Source: Escherichia coli O157 typing phage 14
Sequence record: KP869112
DNA length: 64,000 nt
Strand: one strand, 5' to 3'
Made by a program: the position numbers and the translations under genes
Shown here: positions 25,323 through 30,467 of the stretch, piece by piece
Position numbering within the stretch: position 1 is the first letter of the stretch
How the letters are laid out: every line of letters begins with the position of its first letter
The notes under the pieces: model-generated
Seen by the model: the letters and a program-made list of their open reading frames with translations, nothing else
Told to the model about the DNA's origin: nothing
Databases searched by the model: none

Positions 25323-27659
25323 TTACCAAAGGTCGGTAGACATGAAGTTGATATCTTTATTGTTCTCCCACTCAAGTTTTGCATCAAATATTTTGTTAAA
25401 CTCACCCTCATCTATTGAAATCGTGATTTTCCCATCACTGATCTCTAAAGGTAGCATTTCCATAGTTCTTAATTGAGAAGCAAAACCAGGGCCACCCGGC
25501 AACGGAAGAGTCCCGCCCGGTAAGGTGTCCAAAGGATTAACAAACCCGTTACCTCCAGATATGATATCTTTGCGAATCATATCGCTGATAGTATCTAGCT
25601 GCTGATTTCTTTCACTTAGTGGGTTGTAACGGTCATTAAATAATTCCCCGGCGCTTAGTATTGTACCGATAATGCCCAGCTTACCGAGCAGACCAACTTT
25701 GCCACCAGGTGTCTTGAGGCCACCCCCACCTTTTCCTGCCGGAGCTCCACCACCAGATCCTTCTGTAGTAGCGGCACCCGCTGCTCCAGCTGCACCCCTT
25801 AGAGAGTTAAGGAATTTAAAGGTTTTTACAAGCATGGATGCCATGACAAAACCTTTTGTTAGGGCGTTGACTACCAGCATGATGGCAGCAGCAAACCCTG
25901 CCCATTTAGCATAGCTAAAGGTGTCATGAAGCTCTTCAGAATATTCCTTCGTCTTAGCTGTTATGAATCCCCATTTAATCCCCCATTCAAGGAAAAACAT
26001 GCGGATCTTGACTATAGTGTTGTTTAGTTCACCAACTACCCAGTTAAGGCCTCTCACAAACCCGCTAACAAAATCACCAGAGGCATCCCACACAAATTGC
26101 AGAGTCTCACCAGTGCGGATTAGTGTATAATAGAACTCTGTTAGTTCGTCAGACCAACGGGTGAACAGTTTCTGACGAGTCAGTTCGATGAAGGTTTTCA
26201 GTCTGTTTTCTGCCAGCACGTTAGACTTCTGCATTCTTTCATAACCAGCTGCAGATGCCTCGTTCATGTACTTAGCCACATACTTCATGATCTTGGCTGT
26301 TTTAACCTCACCTTTCTTCATCATGTCCATGAACTGATCCATGGAGAGTTCAGAAAGACCAAAAGCCTCTTTGGTGGCCTTGATAAAAGGTTCGTATGCA
26401 CCAGGCAATGCTTCAGCAAGTTGTTGCTTCAGTTCTTCGGACATTACTTGTCCCTTGCCAAGCATCTGTTGGATTGCCATAATACCGCGCTGGTATTTTA
26501 CCTCATCGGCACCATAAGCAGCAGCATACTGGGAGTATGCAGAAAACAGCTCATGCACTTCCTGATTTGTCATCTGGTTTTTGGCGTTTACCGACATCTG
26601 GGCGTAACCTTGAAGACCAGATTTGAGATCAAAACCAAGACGCATAGCCTCTTGCTGGACAAACGCAACCTCACTGTTAGCTTTGTTTGGATCTCCAGTA
26701 ACAGCAGTAAGAGCAGCACTTGCCCCTTCCATCATGTGACCGGATCTGTTAACCGCAGCAAATCCAGAAAAAGCTGTATACGCAGCTGTTGCATTAATAA
26801 CAGATCTACGTAAGTCTCTCATGGCATCGCCTAGTGTAAGCGTTTGGCTGGTGGCGCTTTTAAACCCAGACTGCAGCGCTGACAGGTGGGCGTTAAAGGT
26901 TGACTTCTTCATCTCCCCGCGAGCAAACCTGGACTCTAACTCTGAGTATCCTGGCAAGCTTCCACGGAATCCGGCCCCATACTTGGCAGAAAGTCTTATC
27001 GCGGAGTTGTAGAGGTGGGTTCTCCTTGCCTCACGATCCGACATAAGCCTATTATCCATACCAGCTTTACTGTCTCTTCTTAGCTGTCTATGATAACGAT
27101 TCATAGCGGCTGTCTGAGCTTTCACAAGGTTAGGGTCGGAAGCCACACCACCCATATTAGGGTTACCGGGGATATATTTGAAAGATTTGGCATTAGCCAA
27201 AACTCTTGCCTTAGGTGCCTTATAACCACCGTAAGACACTGGTGCAGATTTGGCAGCCTTTTTGGCCTCTTTGGCTTGCTGCTGGTAGAACTTACGCATC
27301 CTAGCCATTTCTGGATTTTTAGCGGTAAGATTACCTACAGCTTGTTTACGTCTCGCATTCTCCCTACGTTCTATTGCAGCCCTTACTGCAGCCTCTTTCT
27401 TGGCCTGTGCTACGCTCTCTCTGTGCAGTTTAGCATTTGCCTGAGATTGCTGTCTGGCAACCCTCTGCATTGTCTGCTGGGTTTTAACAGCTACCGCCTG
27501 CCATCTACTCATGGGGTTGGCTGAGTTAAAATCCTCACCCAGTTTCCTGAACTCCCTCCCAATACTGCGAATTTTCTCTACAGCTTTTTTGTAGGAGGAG
27601 TTCTCTATCTCAAAGCCAATCTTGTTGACTGTTGTGGCAACTATTTTGTTTGTAGCCAT
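25323..27659 (-). CDS. tail tape measure protein
   Basis: 778 aa, helix-rich with Ala/Gly/Lys-rich low-complexity and C-terminal Gly-rich stretch; located directly after the chaperone pair; RBS GAGGAAAC. Confidence 0.7.
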   Translation of the reverse strand: MATNKIVATTVNKIGFEIENSSYKKAVEKIRSIGREFRKLGEDFNSANPMSRWQAVAVKTQQTMQRVARQQSQANAKLHRESVAQAKKEAAVRAAIERRENARRKQAVGNLTAKNPEMARMRKFYQQQAKEAKKAAKSAPVSYGGYKAPKARVLANAKSFKYIPGNPNMGGVASDPNLVKAQTAAMNRYHRQLRRDSKAGMDNRLMSDREARRTHLYNSAIRLSAKYGAGFRGSLPGYSELESRFARGEMKKSTFNAHLSALQSGFKSATSQTLTLGDAMRDLRRSVINATAAYTAFSGFAAVNRSGHMMEGASAALTAVTGDPNKANSEVAFVQQEAMRLGFDLKSGLQGYAQMSVNAKNQMTNQEVHELFSAYSQYAAAYGADEVKYQRGIMAIQQMLGKGQVMSEELKQQLAEALPGAYEPFIKATKEAFGLSELSMDQFMDMMKKGEVKTAKIMKYVAKYMNEASAAGYERMQKSNVLAENRLKTFIELTRQKLFTRWSDELTEFYYTLIRTGETLQFVWDASGDFVSGFVRGLNWVVGELNNTIVKIRMFFLEWGIKWGFITAKTKEYSEELHDTFSYAKWAGFAAAIMLVVNALTKGFVMASMLVKTFKFLNSLRGAAGAAGAATTEGSGGGAPAGKGGGGLKTPGGKVGLLGKLGIIGTILSAGELFNDRYNPLSERNQQLDTISDMIRKDIISGGNGFVNPLDTLPGGTLPLPGGPGFASQLRTMEMLPLEISDGKITISIDEGEFNKIFDAKLEWENNKDINFMSTDLW

Positions 27660-27665
27660 GGTTTC

Positions 27666-27708
27666 CTCATAATAAAAAGGGCCAGATCCCAGAAAAGGAA
27701 TCCGGCCC
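27666..27708 (-). terminator. terminator-like hairpin downstream of the chaperone frameshift ORF
   Basis: GGGCC...GGCCC stem (plus 27679-27708) followed on the minus strand by UUUUUAUUAUGAG. Confidence 0.45.
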
Positions 27709-27713
27709 TTAGA

Positions 27714-28447
27714 TTATCCTCTCCTGCGCTTAGCTTTCGCAGCAGCTGCGGCAGCCTTCTGCTCCCGCTCCATTTCCCTGTTTTGGACGGTATCTAGGAA
27801 TTCTTCGATATCAAGATACTCACAGAGCTTCAGGAAATACGCCATATCTGCAAGATTTAGCGATTCAAAATTTTCCCCTTTGAAATTCTTGAGCACCCTG
27901 CACCAAAGAAAGTCGAACCAGTTGAGTGAACTGTTCTTGGCTGCCCACTCACTGGCCCTCACAACAACCTTGCTTATTCCTGCTCTTCCGGAGTCTGATC
28001 CAGGTTGTTCACCTGCTGAATCATACCCATCTGCTGTAACATCTCCAGAAGGCTTCCTAAACCGTCTTGTGTGAAAAAACAGCCGTAGTTAACCTCCAGA
28101 ACCTTACCTGCCAGCTTAATCATCTCCAGCAGATGTCCTGCAAACACAACATCTGGGTTAAGCCTATCCACACCATCTACGGTAATATCTTCGAACAAAA
28201 TTTTAAATAACTCTTCAATAGAGTTATCATCAAGTTCTTGGAACAGGTAAGCCAGAGCAGTAGGAAGGACCTCTGCCATATTCTGACCGCCTGAGATAAT
28301 AGATCCACCGATAGCACCTAGCGGGACAGCCACAATCTTACCGATTTTAGGCATGTTTTTCATTGCTTTCATCGGTCCCCAGTGGGTGATCACAAAGTTG
28401 TGCCCTGCTAAATCAATCTCTGTTGTAGGTCTAAAGTTTATAGCCAT
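27714..28447 (-). CDS. tail assembly chaperone frameshift fusion product (G-T-like), made by -1 slippage at 28073-28079
   Basis: The -1 frame is open from 28089 to the stop at 27714 and overlaps the 3' end of 27974..28447; a canonical slippery heptamer U_UUU_UUC sits in the zero frame (codons Cys-Phe-Phe of NYGCFF). Confidence 0.5.
27974..28447 (-). CDS. tail assembly chaperone (zero-frame product)
   Basis: 157 aa acidic protein between tube and tape measure genes; contains the slippery site near its 3' end. Confidence 0.6.
   Translation of the reverse strand: MAINFRPTTEIDLAGHNFVITHWGPMKAMKNMPKIGKIVAVPLGAIGGSIISGGQNMAEVLPTALAYLFQELDDNSIEELFKILFEDITVDGVDRLNPDVVFAGHLLEMIKLAGKVLEVNYGCFFTQDGLGSLLEMLQQMGMIQQVNNLDQTPEEQE
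28073..28079 (-). other. -1 programmed ribosomal frameshift slippery heptamer UUUUUUC
   Basis: Minus-strand mRNA AAC UAC GGC UGU UUU UUC ACA; X_XXY_YYZ pattern with X=U, Y=U, Z=C; the -1 frame continues for about 120 codons. Confidence 0.5.
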
Positions 28448-28490
28448 TTTATAGCATCCTTATTAGTCATGTTGTGCACCATATTTGTGT

Positions 28491-28519
28491 ATTTTACCAT
28501 GATTATGGTGCATTGTCAA
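28491..28519 (-). promoter_or_regulatory. sigma70-like promoter, TTGACA-N17-TAAAAT
   Basis: Minus strand: -35 TTGACA (plus 28514-28519), 17-nt spacer, -10 TAAAAT (plus 28491-28496); upstream of the chaperone gene. Confidence 0.5.
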
Positions 28520-28560
28520 TTTAACCTTTCAAGCAATTCAAGAACGTGTGTCAAAACCAT

Positions 28561-28592
28561 AAAAGCAAAAAGCCCCACCCGAAGGTGAGGCT
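28561..28592 (-). terminator. rho-independent terminator downstream of the tail tube gene
   Basis: Minus-strand hairpin AGCCUCACC-UUCG-GGUGGGGCU followed by UUUUGCUUUU. Confidence 0.6.
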
Positions 28593-28609
28593 TATGCTAA
28601 AGTGTGCCC

Positions 28610-29083
28610 TTAGATAATACCTGCAAGACCTGCGAGGCCAGTAAGAGCACCAGTGATGTTATCACGGTTGAGCCATGCATCCAGAATACCGATATCCCAG
28701 TCCAGTTGACCTACTTCGGTTCCGTAAGTCAGGTCAGGCTGTTTCTGGATCCAACCGATTGTGGAAATACCAGGGCCCTGGCTACCTTCCAGCAGAACCG
28801 GGAAGAATACCAGGCCAGTAATCGATGCCTGTTTCTGCCAGTCAGAAAGGTAAGCGTTCCATACAGAAGTGTTCTGCAAAGATACAGTCATAACACCAGA
28901 TTGGTTACGAGACAGGGCCGCAGACATTTCGCCATCCACACCAACGTGAGGGTAGATGTTATCTTCATTTCTTGAAACAACGATCTTGGTGTCAGCAGCG
29001 AAGCCAGTGACACGCTGCTGCATCAGGTACAGTTTGACCTTTTTAGGGTCATAAGCATAAGGAGTTAAAATTTGAGTTTCCAT
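28610..29083 (-). CDS. tail tube protein
   Basis: 157 aa ORF between sheath-size gene and chaperone pair (sheath-tube-chaperone-tape measure order as in P2/Mu-type tails). Confidence 0.5.
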   Translation of the reverse strand: METQILTPYAYDPKKVKLYLMQQRVTGFAADTKIVVSRNEDNIYPHVGVDGEMSAALSRNQSGVMTVSLQNTSVWNAYLSDWQKQASITGLVFFPVLLEGSQGPGISTIGWIQKQPDLTYGTEVGQLDWDIGILDAWLNRDNITGALTGLAGLAGII

Positions 29084-29093
29084 CTAGTCTTCC

Positions 29094-30467
29094 TTATTCA
29101 GTCATTGCAACAGCATTGGTGGATTTAGAACCAACTTTGTCCAGAAGGACGTTGATCCGGATACGAACGAAGTGCAGGGCGTTGTTATACACCAGTTCTA
29201 CTTTCACACCTTCCAGAACACGAGCAGCCAACTGATTGGTTGGGATCTCTGCACGTTTAGGAACTGTGATGATCGGGTCGTAGAACACATTGTTGTCTTC
29301 GTCAAAACCTGTCAGGATCGCGCCATTCTTAATGCCAGTATTGATCGGGTTGTTCATCAGAACAGACTTGATAACCGGAAGATCATCATCAGACATCTTC
29401 ATGCTTAAACCCATATTAGAGCGACGATGCATGTACCCAAACATAGATTCTTCAGATCTGAACTTGATCCAGTGTGCAAAACGAATAGCGTCTGCATACT
29501 GACCTGAAGCACACTTGCCTTCCCAGAAAGCGCCAACACCGTTAATCATTCTGTAGAAGTTAACGTGGTTTTCCCAAATCGCCATACGCTGAGTTAAAGT
29601 CAGAGATGGTGCAATCACACCAGGCATCTGTTTTAAATGCAAGCTGTCGCCATAGGACGGATCGTTAGATGCCATAGCGCCTATGATACCACCCTCTGGA
29701 AAATCTTTATCAGCACGAGGATCGTACATGCCAACACTGTCATATTGTGCAGTCATCAGTTTGGTGGCGATGTTATTATCTTTACCAGGCACATCTTCTG
29801 CAGTAGAGTAGACATGCAGCTTGTAGTTAGCCTGAGCCCACTTCGCACATGCTTCAATGTCGGTGTGGTCTTCATGGCACAGGAAGTACCAATTGTCACG
29901 CTCAGCATTGATCTCATCAACTACTGTAGAAGGTTTTTCAGCATTGGCGATATTTTTGATTGTATAGTTACCAGTATGATAACCAACAGTGCAATCACCA
30001 GTGATGGTGATAACACCATTGGCAGCCTCTACAGTGATGTCCAAGTTATCATCTGCTTCGATCTTAGTCTTCATTGACTCTGCAATCTGAGTTGCACCTG
30101 TTCCACCAGAGATAGGTACTATCAAAGAAGTATTGTAGCTACCTTTTGCAATAGTCATTACGACATCGGTATCAGCTGCGGCAGCAATACCTTCAAAATC
30201 TACAGTGGTCTTTTCTTTGGCCTGTCTGCCGATCATAACGTATTGTGGAGGGAATACACCACCAAAAGCTTTTGCTGCAAACTCATACGCTGCAGAGCCT
30301 TGTGCGAAACCATCTTCCACCATCTGATCCAGCTCTGCATATACGCGAGCTCGCTCAGTAAAGTTGTTGTGGATAGCGATGAACAGGGGAGTTTCGAAAC
30401 CTACAGTGTCAATAGGCTGGGTTCCGAGGTTAACTGTAACATCTACCACTTTATCTAAATATGGCAT
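29094..30467 (-). CDS. tail sheath protein
   Basis: 457 aa; size and position immediately upstream of tube gene; RBS AAGAGGAAAC. Confidence 0.55.
   Translation of the reverse strand: MPYLDKVVDVTVNLGTQPIDTVGFETPLFIAIHNNFTERARVYAELDQMVEDGFAQGSAAYEFAAKAFGGVFPPQYVMIGRQAKEKTTVDFEGIAAAADTDVVMTIAKGSYNTSLIVPISGGTGATQIAESMKTKIEADDNLDITVEAANGVITITGDCTVGYHTGNYTIKNIANAEKPSTVVDEINAERDNWYFLCHEDHTDIEACAKWAQANYKLHVYSTAEDVPGKDNNIATKLMTAQYDSVGMYDPRADKDFPEGGIIGAMASNDPSYGDSLHLKQMPGVIAPSLTLTQRMAIWENHVNFYRMINGVGAFWEGKCASGQYADAIRFAHWIKFRSEESMFGYMHRRSNMGLSMKMSDDDLPVIKSVLMNNPINTGIKNGAILTGFDEDNNVFYDPIITVPKRAEIPTNQLAARVLEGVKVELVYNNALHFVRIRINVLLDKVGSKSTNAVAMTE

What the first reader, a model, noticed from the sequence alone, without database searches (positions are those of the whole stretch)
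27714..28447. Canonical -1 programmed frameshift site in the tail assembly chaperone gene
In the zero frame the mRNA reads UGU UUU UUC (Cys-Phe-Phe of NYGCFF), giving the heptamer U_UUU_UUC. The -1 frame is open from there for about 120 codons to a stop at 27714, overlapping the last ~35 codons of the zero-frame ORF. This matches the conserved G/GT-type chaperone frameshift found between tube and tape measure genes, and implies that the track ORF 27714..27962 (GTG start) is really the C-terminal extension of a fusion protein.
Basis: partly seen in the sequence, partly recalled or inferred. Interest (0 to 1): 0.4.

Follow-up and report, generated by a model that had tools for sequence, protein, structure and literature searches.

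The report
Tail chaperone frameshift, rV5-like phage
The phage's tail-assembly chaperone gene carries a strictly conserved slippery sequence that most likely lets a few ribosomes slip back one base and make a longer fusion protein, a well-known phage trick that public records for this phage group do not annotate.

Summary
The window is an rV5-like Vequintavirus. On the minus strand, between the tube gene and the tape-measure gene, lies a 157-aa tail assembly chaperone (Pfam Phage_TAC_15). It contains an in-phase U_UUU_UUC heptamer at 28079..28073. The -1 frame is closed by a TAA three codons before the heptamer, then stays open for 119 codons to 27714.

All 41 distinct relatives examined share this arrangement, down to about 29% protein identity: other Vequintavirinae genera, Stephanstirmvirinae, an Aeromonas phage and metagenomic lineages. 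Felixounavirus contigs also have it. The heptamer is always NNT TTT TTC, although Phe codons elsewhere in these genes split 50:50 and the preceding residue varies (Cys, Pro, Ser). The -1 frame never contains a stop.

Several relatives have no start codon ahead of the conserved C-terminal domain, so that domain can only be made as a fusion. A Barbavirus relative carries lambda's G_GGA_AAG nearby instead, which favours ribosomal over transcriptional slippage.

No downstream RNA structure is conserved. An upstream GGAGG at stimulatory spacing is present.

This is a new, unannotated member of the classic G/GT frameshift class. It matters for annotation and is otherwise ordinary. There is no experimental proof.

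The parts
29094..30467 (-). Tail sheath gene (457 aa)
   Evidence: Pfam DUF3383 and PHROG 205 'tail sheath', E = 2e-116. Annotated as sheath in Murica and rV5_ev147.
28610..29083 (-). Tail tube gene (157 aa)
   Evidence: Pfam PF11681 (KPP10_Orf10 / Phage_Tube_PhiTE). This is rV5 gp52, a tail tube protein with mass-spectrometry evidence.
28570..28593 (-). Terminator-like hairpin followed by a T run, after the tube gene
   Evidence: 10-bp stem, 6 GC pairs. Annotated as a terminator in phage Murica.
28491..28519 (-). Sigma-70-like promoter (TTGACA, 17 nt, TG-TAAAAT; 11 of 12 matches) ahead of the chaperone gene
   Evidence: This is a consensus match only; function is inferred.
27974..28447 (-). 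Zero-frame tail assembly chaperone 'G' (157 aa, stop included)
28093..28097 (-). SD-like GGAGG, 13 nt 5' of the heptamer (candidate upstream frameshift stimulator)
   Evidence: Read from the sequence. GGAG or GAGG is present at this position in 26 of 36 distinct relatives. The Glu codon here is GAG in 27 and GAA in 7, against 92 GAG and 259 GAA elsewhere in these genes. The spacing falls inside the 6-17 nt stimulatory range used by Sharma et al. 2014. Its role is inferred.
28089..28091 (-). TAA stop in the -1 frame, three codons before the heptamer; it sets the 5' limit of where a slip can occur
28073..28079 (-). Slippery heptamer U_UUU_UUC (X_XXY_YYZ phase; codons TGT TTT TTC = Cys-Phe-Phe)
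   Evidence: It is invariant in 41 distinct related loci and 20 Felixounavirus contigs.
27714..28073 (-). -1 frame 'T' extension: 119 codons plus TAA. C28073 is read twice, so the GT fusion is 28447..28073 plus 28073..27714, 244 aa
   Evidence: The -1 frame has no stops in any relative, while the +1 frame has 4-17. dN/dS is 0.10-0.15 where it could be computed. tblastn with the fused protein matches both parts in two frames in relatives.
27714..27962 (-). Conventionally annotated GTG ORF (82 aa), which is the 3' two-thirds of the T extension
   Evidence: Annotated as 'hypothetical protein' in Murica, rV5_ev147 and HMD-6. PHROG 10409, unknown function.
27677..27710 (-). Terminator-like hairpin immediately after the GT stop
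   Evidence: 14-bp stem. Annotated as a terminator in Murica.
25323..27659 (-). Tape measure protein gene (778 aa)
   Evidence: Pfam TMP_3, E = 1.5e-18. PHROG 5255 'tail length tape measure protein'.

Best explanation
This is the G/GT-type programmed -1 ribosomal frameshift of an rV5-like (Vequintavirus) myophage. Most ribosomes translate the chaperone gene 28447..27974 to its stop and make the 157-aa G protein. A minority slip while tRNA-Phe occupies both the P site (UUU) and the A site (UUC) on U_UUU_UUC (28079..28073). Both tRNAs re-pair one base back on UUU UUU. Translation then continues in the -1 frame for 119 codons to 27714, giving a 244-aa GT fusion (junction ...VNYGCFF|HTRRFRKPSGD...). 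The fusion consists of the G chaperone core, a Gly/Ser/Asp-rich linker and a conserved C-terminal T domain of about 80 aa. By analogy with lambda, G and the G part of GT would coat the tape measure protein. The T domain would recruit the tube protein, so the fixed G:GT ratio controls tail-tube initiation. Neither protein would end up in the virion. The sequence shows the heptamer, its phase, the open frame, the conservation, the purifying selection on T and the lack of an alternative start in relatives. The slip itself, its efficiency (probably low per cent), a stimulatory role for the upstream GGAGG and the binding partners are inferred.
Against: There is no experimental evidence for a fusion protein in any rV5-like phage. 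No downstream stimulatory structure was found: RNAalifold predicts 0 pairs and single-sequence z-scores are about 0. In E. coli reporters, heptamers without stimulators shift only 2-10 times above a background of about 0.05%, so the real efficiency is unknown. The upstream SD-like element is absent from Certrevirus. In this particular phage a GTG with a weak AAGG lies at codon 38 of the extension, so some independent initiation cannot be excluded. The related loci are phylogenetically non-independent, so the raw counts overstate significance. The viral-contig scan used the peptide pattern ...[CP]FF, which constrains amino acids but not codons.
Confidence: 0.9

Rival explanations
1. There are two separate genes, as in current GenBank annotation. 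Under this reading the downstream ORF is translated on its own from GTG 27962 (or rV5's annotated CTG 28082), and the heptamer is incidental.
For: A GTG preceded by AAGG exists at 27962. Murica, rV5_ev147 and HMD-6 annotate it as a separate CDS. An 82-aa product would contain most of the conserved T domain.
Against: The start position is not conserved. Annotated starts in relatives scatter over about 50 codons. Several relatives have no ATG, GTG or TTG before codon 61-84, although the conserved, purifying-selected domain begins near codon 40. The -1 frame stays open, and 'RFR' is conserved right at the heptamer, well upstream of any start. Wobble-level conservation of the heptamer is unexplained under this model. 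The CTG 'start' in rV5 is merely the first codon after the -1 stop region.
Confidence: 0.04
2. The fusion arises by transcriptional slippage. RNA polymerase would add an extra U in the T6 run, producing a subpopulation of mRNAs in which G and T are in frame.
For: The site is a homopolymeric T6 run. One public record (CL1) has T7 and reads as an in-frame fusion.
Against: The run is only 6 nt. It is never extended to T7 in 41 distinct related loci and 20 Felixounavirus contigs, although TTT would be synonymous at position Z. That pattern points to selection against a longer run. The run is always in exact X_XXY_YYZ phase. A Barbavirus relative substitutes G_GGA_AAG, which has no long homopolymer, at nearly the same place. 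From general knowledge, efficient slippage by E. coli RNA polymerase needs runs of roughly 8-9 or more.
Confidence: 0.04
3. The heptamer is a chance motif and no recoding occurs. Under this reading the -1 ORF is a non-functional overlap and only G is made.
For: About 0.1 in-phase heptamers are expected by chance in the permissive stretch of a single genome.
Against: The 119-codon -1 extension is an outlier (next best 36). The heptamer, its phase, the open frame and the T protein sequence are conserved down to about 29% identity with dN/dS near 0.1.
Confidence: 0.02

Closest known systems
Phage lambda gpG/gpGT (-1 PRF at G_GGA_AAG; Levin 1993; Xu, Hendrix and Duda 2004, 2013, 2014, as summarised in PMC5009743)
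   Same: The chaperone gene sits directly upstream of the tape-measure gene. A -1 slip on a canonical heptamer near the 3' end of G leads into an overlapping ORF with no start of its own. No stimulatory downstream structure is evident. The products are not found in virions. A Barbavirus relative of this family even uses lambda's exact heptamer.
   Different: The heptamer differs (U_UUU_UUC, both sites decoded by tRNA-Phe, rather than Gly/Lys). The Pfam family differs (PF21822), with no detectable sequence similarity to lambda G. This is a contractile-tailed phage of about 137 kb. An upstream SD-like GGAGG may act as a stimulator. The efficiency is unknown.
Phage P2 E/E+E' (-1 PRF at T_TTT_TTG; Christie 2002, cited in PMC3091744)
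   Same: It is a myovirus with a T6-type heptamer, the chaperone genes sit between the tube and tape-measure genes, and no downstream hairpin is present.
TAC-N/TAC-NC frameshift of Vandenendeviridae (Pakpunavirus Adele) and Andersonviridae (PMC12846349, Dec 2025)
   Same: These clades have a homologous virion module, sharing the KPP10/PhiTE tube family and the DUF3383 sheath. They have a conserved 'GTTTTT' motif at the 3' end of TAC-N and an uninterrupted -1 frame, and the downstream ORF is routinely mis-annotated as a separate hypothetical gene. Felixounavirus contigs examined here carry the same AGT TTT TTC heptamer at the homologous NFGSFF site.
   Different: The passages of that paper retrieved here analyse the TAC locus in Vandenendeviridae and Andersonviridae and do not mention it for Vequintavirinae or Stephanstirmvirinae. 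The present locus extends the same signal to those subfamilies and to Plateaulakevirus.
E. coli dnaX and IS911 -1 frameshift signals
   Same: An SD-like sequence lies upstream of the heptamer at stimulatory spacing. Here GGAGG is 13 nt 5' of the motif, within the 6-17 nt range.
   Different: The dnaX and IS911 signals also use a downstream hairpin and an A_AAA_AAG motif, and they shift at high efficiency. No downstream structure is detectable here.

Membership tests
G/GT-type tail assembly chaperone pair expressed by -1 PRF (Xu, Hendrix and Duda 2004 class) | The gene lies between the major tail or tube gene and the tape measure gene | tested here: met
   The order is sheath, tube (PF11681), TAC, T ORF, TMP (PF20155) on the minus strand. 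The order is the same in 15 annotated relatives.
G/GT-type tail assembly chaperone pair expressed by -1 PRF (Xu, Hendrix and Duda 2004 class) | A second ORF overlaps the 3' end of the first in the -1 frame and lacks a conserved start of its own | tested here: met
   The -1 frame is open from 28088 to 27714 with a 32-codon overlap. Start codons are not conserved and are absent before codon 61-84 in five relatives.
G/GT-type tail assembly chaperone pair expressed by -1 PRF (Xu, Hendrix and Duda 2004 class) | A canonical X_XXY_YYZ slippery heptamer, in zero-frame phase, lies within the stretch where the -1 frame is open | tested here: met
   T_TTT_TTC at 28079..28073 is the only in-phase heptamer in the permissive stretch.
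G/GT-type tail assembly chaperone pair expressed by -1 PRF (Xu, Hendrix and Duda 2004 class) | The slip site and frame arrangement are conserved in divergent relatives beyond what the protein sequence requires | tested here: met
   All 41 distinct loci carry NNT TTT TTC, against 50:50 Phe codon use elsewhere. The wobble T is kept across Cys, Pro and Ser codons. Barbavirus substitutes G_GGA_AAG.
G/GT-type tail assembly chaperone pair expressed by -1 PRF (Xu, Hendrix and Duda 2004 class) | A fusion protein is made in vivo at a low fixed ratio to G and is required for tail assembly | not testable with these tools
   This needs a western blot, mass spectrometry or genetics. No published data for rV5-like phages were found.
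G/GT-type tail assembly chaperone pair expressed by -1 PRF (Xu, Hendrix and Duda 2004 class) | The products are absent from mature virions | tested here: inconclusive
   rV5 Table S3 marks no mass-spectrometry evidence for gp50 or gp51. No G or T peptides occur in the virion data of Table S5. This is only absence of evidence.
Pfam PF21822 Phage_TAC_15 | The whole-protein score exceeds the curated gathering threshold | tested here: met
   The score is 83.1 bits against a 22-bit cut-off, covering profile positions 2-125 of 127. All 73 database homologues carry PF21822.
Tail assembly chaperone fold (HK97 TAC 2ob9 / YqbN 3klu type) | Structural similarity of the G core to solved TACs | tested here: inconclusive
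Stimulated bacterial -1 PRF signals (dnaX / IS911 / IS3 type) | A downstream hairpin or pseudoknot | tested here: not met
   Single-sequence folds give z from -1.45 to +0.9. RNAalifold on 13 relatives predicts 0 pairs. There is no Rfam hit.
Stimulated bacterial -1 PRF signals (dnaX / IS911 / IS3 type) | An upstream SD-like sequence 6-17 nt before the motif | tested here: met
   GGAGG lies at 28097..28093, 13 nt before the heptamer. GGAG or GAGG is present in 26 of 36 relatives (72%). GAG is enriched at this codon, 27 to 7 against 92 to 259 elsewhere. A stimulatory function is untested.
Transcriptional slippage recoding | A long homopolymeric A or T run whose length, not codon phase, is conserved | tested here: not met
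   The run is T6, always in phase, and never T7 in 41 loci plus 20 Felixounavirus contigs (0 contigs with T7). Barbavirus replaces it with the non-homopolymeric G_GGA_AAG.

The most novel reading that the evidence does not exclude
The short dual-coded block just 3' of the heptamer might be more than a linker. It reads R-F-R-x-P in the -1 frame and G-F/L-G/A in the zero frame, with the nucleotide core GGTTT. It is conserved from rV5-like phages to Barbavirus and, more loosely, to Felixounavirus. Together with the upstream GGAGG it could be a structure-free cis-acting stimulator, for example a nascent-peptide or mRNA-rRNA effect, that sets the G:GT ratio without any hairpin. Against this, the block sits one codon closer to the heptamer in Stephanstirmvirinae, which suggests protein-level rather than RNA-level constraint.
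Probability: 0.1. Interest if true: 0.5.

Novelty: new member of a known kind. Interest (0 to 1): 0.25.

Why it matters
The value lies mainly in annotation and comparative biology. The roughly 490 public phage records that match this locus list 'hypothetical protein' or 'tail assembly chaperone' features under it. Each of the 18 annotated loci opened shows one or two separate CDSs with no join, except CL1's in-frame fused ORF. Among the 73 homologues retrieved from the 5.8-billion-protein collection, none spans both parts. Recognising the GT fusion assigns a function to an ORFan (rV5 gp50, PHROG 10409). It also corrects gene models for rV5-like and phi92-like phages, some of which are under study as therapeutic agents. 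The same U_UUU_UUC signal has been held across very deep divergence in this myovirus lineage, with an occasional swap to lambda's heptamer. This does not change what is understood about frameshifting or tail assembly.

Tried and rejected
- **Downstream stimulatory RNA structure.** Single-sequence folds of 53-105 nt after the heptamer in the window and five relatives gave z-scores from -1.45 to +0.9. RNAalifold on 13 Vequintavirinae sequences gave 0 pairs. No structure was found.
- **Rfam.** An E-value scan of 27500..28750 gave only two sub-threshold chance hits.
- **Family searches on the T extension.** Pfam and NCBIfam returned nothing meaningful. PHROGs returned only families of unknown function.
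- **PDB sequence search with GT.** There were no hits.
- **Existing annotation or publication.** None of the annotated records opened has a joined CDS. No fused protein is in the protein database. The rV5 genome paper does not mention frameshift, chaperone or tape measure. Literature searches for Vequintavirinae, Vequintavirus or Certrevirus combined with frameshift or TAC found only the Adele paper on related clades.
- **rV5 virion mass-spectrometry tables.** No gp50 or gp51 peptides were found. This is uninformative about a fusion, because chaperones are not expected in virions.
- **The T7 run in Felixounavirus CL1.** I considered it as evidence for natural in-frame GT or for polymerase slippage. 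I rejected it as an outlier: 20 IMG/VR contigs have T6 and none has T7, so a homopolymer error is likely.
- **dN/dS.** dS was saturated for most pairs, so only three close pairs and one distant pair were usable.
- **T-domain structure.** I did not predict it. No homologue ids usable for an alignment were in hand, and the result would not change the verdict.

Full report
**What the window is.** The 1.1-kb stretch around the finding is 99.4-100% identical to many rV5-like coliphages, including Murica, the rV5_ev isolates and navn. It is also identical to several records labelled 'Campylobacter phage'. The window is therefore a Vequintavirus (Vequintavirinae) genome segment. All genes discussed here are on the minus strand.

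**Checking the observation.** The ORF 28447..27974 encodes 157 aa ending ...KVLEVNYGCFFTQDG...EEQE.
- Codons 123-125 are TGT TTT TTC, so T_TTT_TTC occupies 28079..28073 in exact X_XXY_YYZ phase.
- In the -1 frame a TAA lies at 28091..28089, three codons before the heptamer.
- From 28088 the -1 frame is open to the TAA at 27716..27714.
- A -1 slip on the heptamer adds 119 codons and yields a 244-aa protein with the junction NYGCFF|HTRRFRKPSGD.
- The overlap with the zero frame is 32 sense codons plus the stop.
- The mechanical GTG ORF 27714..27962 is the 3' part of this frame.

*Chance.* In the window's ORFs of 150 aa or more, in-phase heptamers occur at 0.28% of codon positions. About 0.1 is therefore expected in the 37-codon permissive stretch. 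Among the 33 heptamers with Y = A or T, this one has a 119-codon extension and the next longest has 36. Only 0.6% of all codon positions have a -1 extension that long.

**What the genes are.**
- The 157-aa protein matches Pfam PF21822 Phage_TAC_15 (83 bits against a 22-bit cut-off) and PHROG 3840 'tail assembly chaperone' (1e-68).
- The upstream neighbours are the tube gene (PF11681) and the sheath gene (DUF3383 / PHROG 205).
- The downstream neighbour is the 778-aa tape measure protein (PF20155, PHROG 5255).
- The -1 extension hits only PHROG families of unknown function built from separately annotated downstream ORFs. It has no Pfam, NCBIfam or PDB match.

**Comparative test.** tblastn with the fused 244-aa sequence found 490 phage records. 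In divergent relatives (57% down to 28% identity) the match comes as two pieces in different frames that together cover 88-94% of the query. I fetched three sets of loci:
- 18 annotated loci;
- 33 IMG/VR loci;
- 4 metagenome loci, reached through G homologues only.

All 41 distinct sequences carry TTTTTTC at the homologous site. They come from Vequintavirus, Seunavirus, Henunavirus, Certrevirus, an unclassified LTH01 lineage, Phapecoctavirus, Justusliebigvirus, Aeromonas Plateaulakevirus and uncultured lineages. In each, the -1 frame opens 1-23 codons upstream of the heptamer and runs without a stop for 103-128 codons, ending just before the tape measure gene.

*The conservation is at nucleotide level.*
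- The codon before the first Phe is TGT (Cys), CCT (Pro), TCT (Ser) or AGT (Ser), and always ends in T.
- The first Phe is always TTT and the second always TTC. Phe codons elsewhere in the same genes split 200 TTC to 199 TTT.
- The final C starts a -1 codon whose residue varies (His, Arg, Gln, Leu), so C itself appears to be selected.
- That matches the E. coli hierarchy in which U_UU.C is the second-best A-site shifter, ahead of U_UU.U, and in which homogeneous pyrimidine heptamers are favoured.

*Frame controls.* The +1 frame contains 4-17 stops over the same span. The zero frame contains 2-12 stops over the same span, counting G's own stop.

**Why the downstream ORF is not an independent gene.**
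- Annotated start positions in relatives scatter widely and give products from 43 to 85 aa. Some records annotate no ORF at all.
- In five distinct relatives (L009, L023, L011, L012, L039) the first ATG, GTG or TTG in the -1 frame lies at codon 61-84. The conserved block (...KNSSL.W[FY]D[FY]L...) begins near codon 40.
- The T region evolves under purifying selection. dN/dS is 0.10-0.15 where dS is not saturated.
- The motif R-F-R immediately after the heptamer is conserved far upstream of any candidate start.
- In the original rV5 annotation, gene 50 is a 122-aa ORF overlapping gene 51 by 109 nt. It could only be drawn by starting at the CTG directly before TTT TTT. Neither gene 50 nor gene 51 has an assigned function or mass-spectrometry support.

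**Ribosomal or transcriptional slippage.**
- Rheinheimera Barbavirus relatives lack the T run. They carry G_GGA_AAG, lambda's own heptamer, a few codons downstream. It is in phase, and the -1 product (VFRIPSGD) aligns with the rV5-type RRFRKPSGD. A non-homopolymeric replacement at the same functional position argues for tandem tRNA slippage.
- The T run is never longer than six in the 41 loci or in 20 Felixounavirus contigs, and no contig with T7 was found. This holds even though TTT would be synonymous at that position.
- The single exception is record OK040806 (phage CL1). Its T7 run fuses G and T into one 213-aa ORF annotated 'tape measure chaperone'. This is probably a homopolymer error. 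It does show what the fusion looks like.

**Stimulators.**
- No downstream hairpin or pseudoknot is supported, and there is no Rfam match. Lambda and P2 are the same in this respect.
- GGAGG lies at 28097..28093, 13 nt before the heptamer. This is inside the 6-17 nt range in which SD-like sequences stimulate -1 shifting in E. coli.
- GGAG or GAGG occurs there in 26 of 36 distinct relatives.
- The Glu codon involved is GAG in 27 sequences and GAA in 7, against 92 GAG and 259 GAA elsewhere in these genes. Fisher's test gives p of about 1e-9, without correction for shared ancestry.
- Certrevirus lacks the element.
- I treat it as a plausible but unproven enhancer.

**Mechanism, by analogy.** In lambda, gpG and the G part of gpGT bind the tape measure protein, and the T domain binds the major tail protein. 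The ratio is about 30:1, and neither protein is in the virion. P2 shifts 2-3 times more often than lambda. Three observations here fit that model:
- the architecture of G core, Gly/Ser/Asp-rich linker and conserved T domain;
- strong conservation of G's own zero-frame C-terminal tail across the overlap;
- the absence of gp50 and gp51 peptides from rV5 virion mass spectrometry.

The binding partners and the efficiency remain inferred.

**Transcription context.** The G/GT unit is bracketed by terminator-like hairpins at 28593..28570 and 27710..27677. A near-consensus sigma-70 promoter at 28519..28491 precedes it. The terminators are also annotated in Murica.

**Comparison with what is known.** This belongs to the classic G/GT class (Xu, Hendrix and Duda 2004).
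- The closest described case is the 'GTTTTT' TAC-N/TAC-NC frameshift reported in December 2025 for Vandenendeviridae and Andersonviridae. That paper describes these clades as related to Vequintavirinae.
- In the passages retrieved, that paper's TAC-locus analysis is confined to Vandenendeviridae and Andersonviridae.
- No searched paper, fetched record or database protein annotates the fusion in rV5-like or phi92-like phages.

**Verdict.** It is a new, unannotated member of a known kind. It is useful for annotation and of low surprise value.

Noticed in passing
window 27600-28700 (whole window by implication): The sequence is 100% identical to GenBank records named 'Campylobacter phage D1, D#, C15, A12a, A116' (MG0656xx, unannotated), yet it is plainly an rV5-like coliphage (Vequintavirus). 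Those host labels look doubtful, perhaps through contamination or carry-over.
   Followed up: no
L016:1474-2115 (Escherichia phage CL1, OK040806): This Felixounavirus record has a T7 run at the slip site. G and T therefore read as one in-frame 213-aa 'tape measure chaperone'. Twenty IMG/VR Felixounavirus contigs have T6 (G 132 aa plus a 92-codon -1 extension) and none has T7. A homopolymer sequencing error is likely.
   Followed up: yes
L018:1824-1830 (Rheinheimera phage Barba1A): This distant relative of the same chaperone family has no T run. It carries lambda's G_GGA_AAG heptamer a few codons downstream, which gives the same conserved -1 motif (FR.PSGD). This is a natural swap of slippery sequence.
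   Followed up: partly
window 27714-28082 (rV5 gene 50 in Kropinski et al. 2013, Table S3): The original rV5 annotation drew gene 50 as a 122-aa ORF overlapping gene 51 by 109 nt. That requires a CTG start immediately before TTT TTT. Later records shortened it to the GTG ORF. Nobody annotated a frameshift.
   Followed up: yes
window 28570-28593, 28491-28519, 27677-27710: The chaperone unit is flanked by two terminator-like hairpins and has its own near-consensus extended -10 promoter. It may therefore be transcribed separately from the sheath and tube genes and from the tape measure gene.
   Followed up: partly
window 27977-28072 (overlap region): The overlap is genuinely dual-coding. G's zero-frame tail (T-[KQ]-[DE]-G-F-[AG]-x-L...G-x-V-x-Q-V-N-x-[LV]-D-Q) is well conserved. 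The same bases in the -1 frame encode R-F-R-x-P followed by a variable Gly/Ser/Asp-rich linker.
   Followed up: partly
L004:1-1427 (phage HMD-6); L052 and L053:1-1444 (gut metagenome relatives): In some close relatives the gene immediately upstream of the chaperone is not the 157-aa tube gene. It is a large ORF of at least 510-620 aa, carrying Pfam DUF723 in L052 and L053. This suggests an insertion, possibly a homing-endonuclease-like gene, in the tube-chaperone intergenic region.
   Followed up: no
L013:2311-3189 (Pectobacterium phage DU_PP_IV): Two extra annotated ORFs (117 nt and 762 nt) sit between the T extension and the annotated tape measure CDS. Other Certrevirus records lack them. 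This may be an insertion or a split tape-measure annotation.
   Followed up: no
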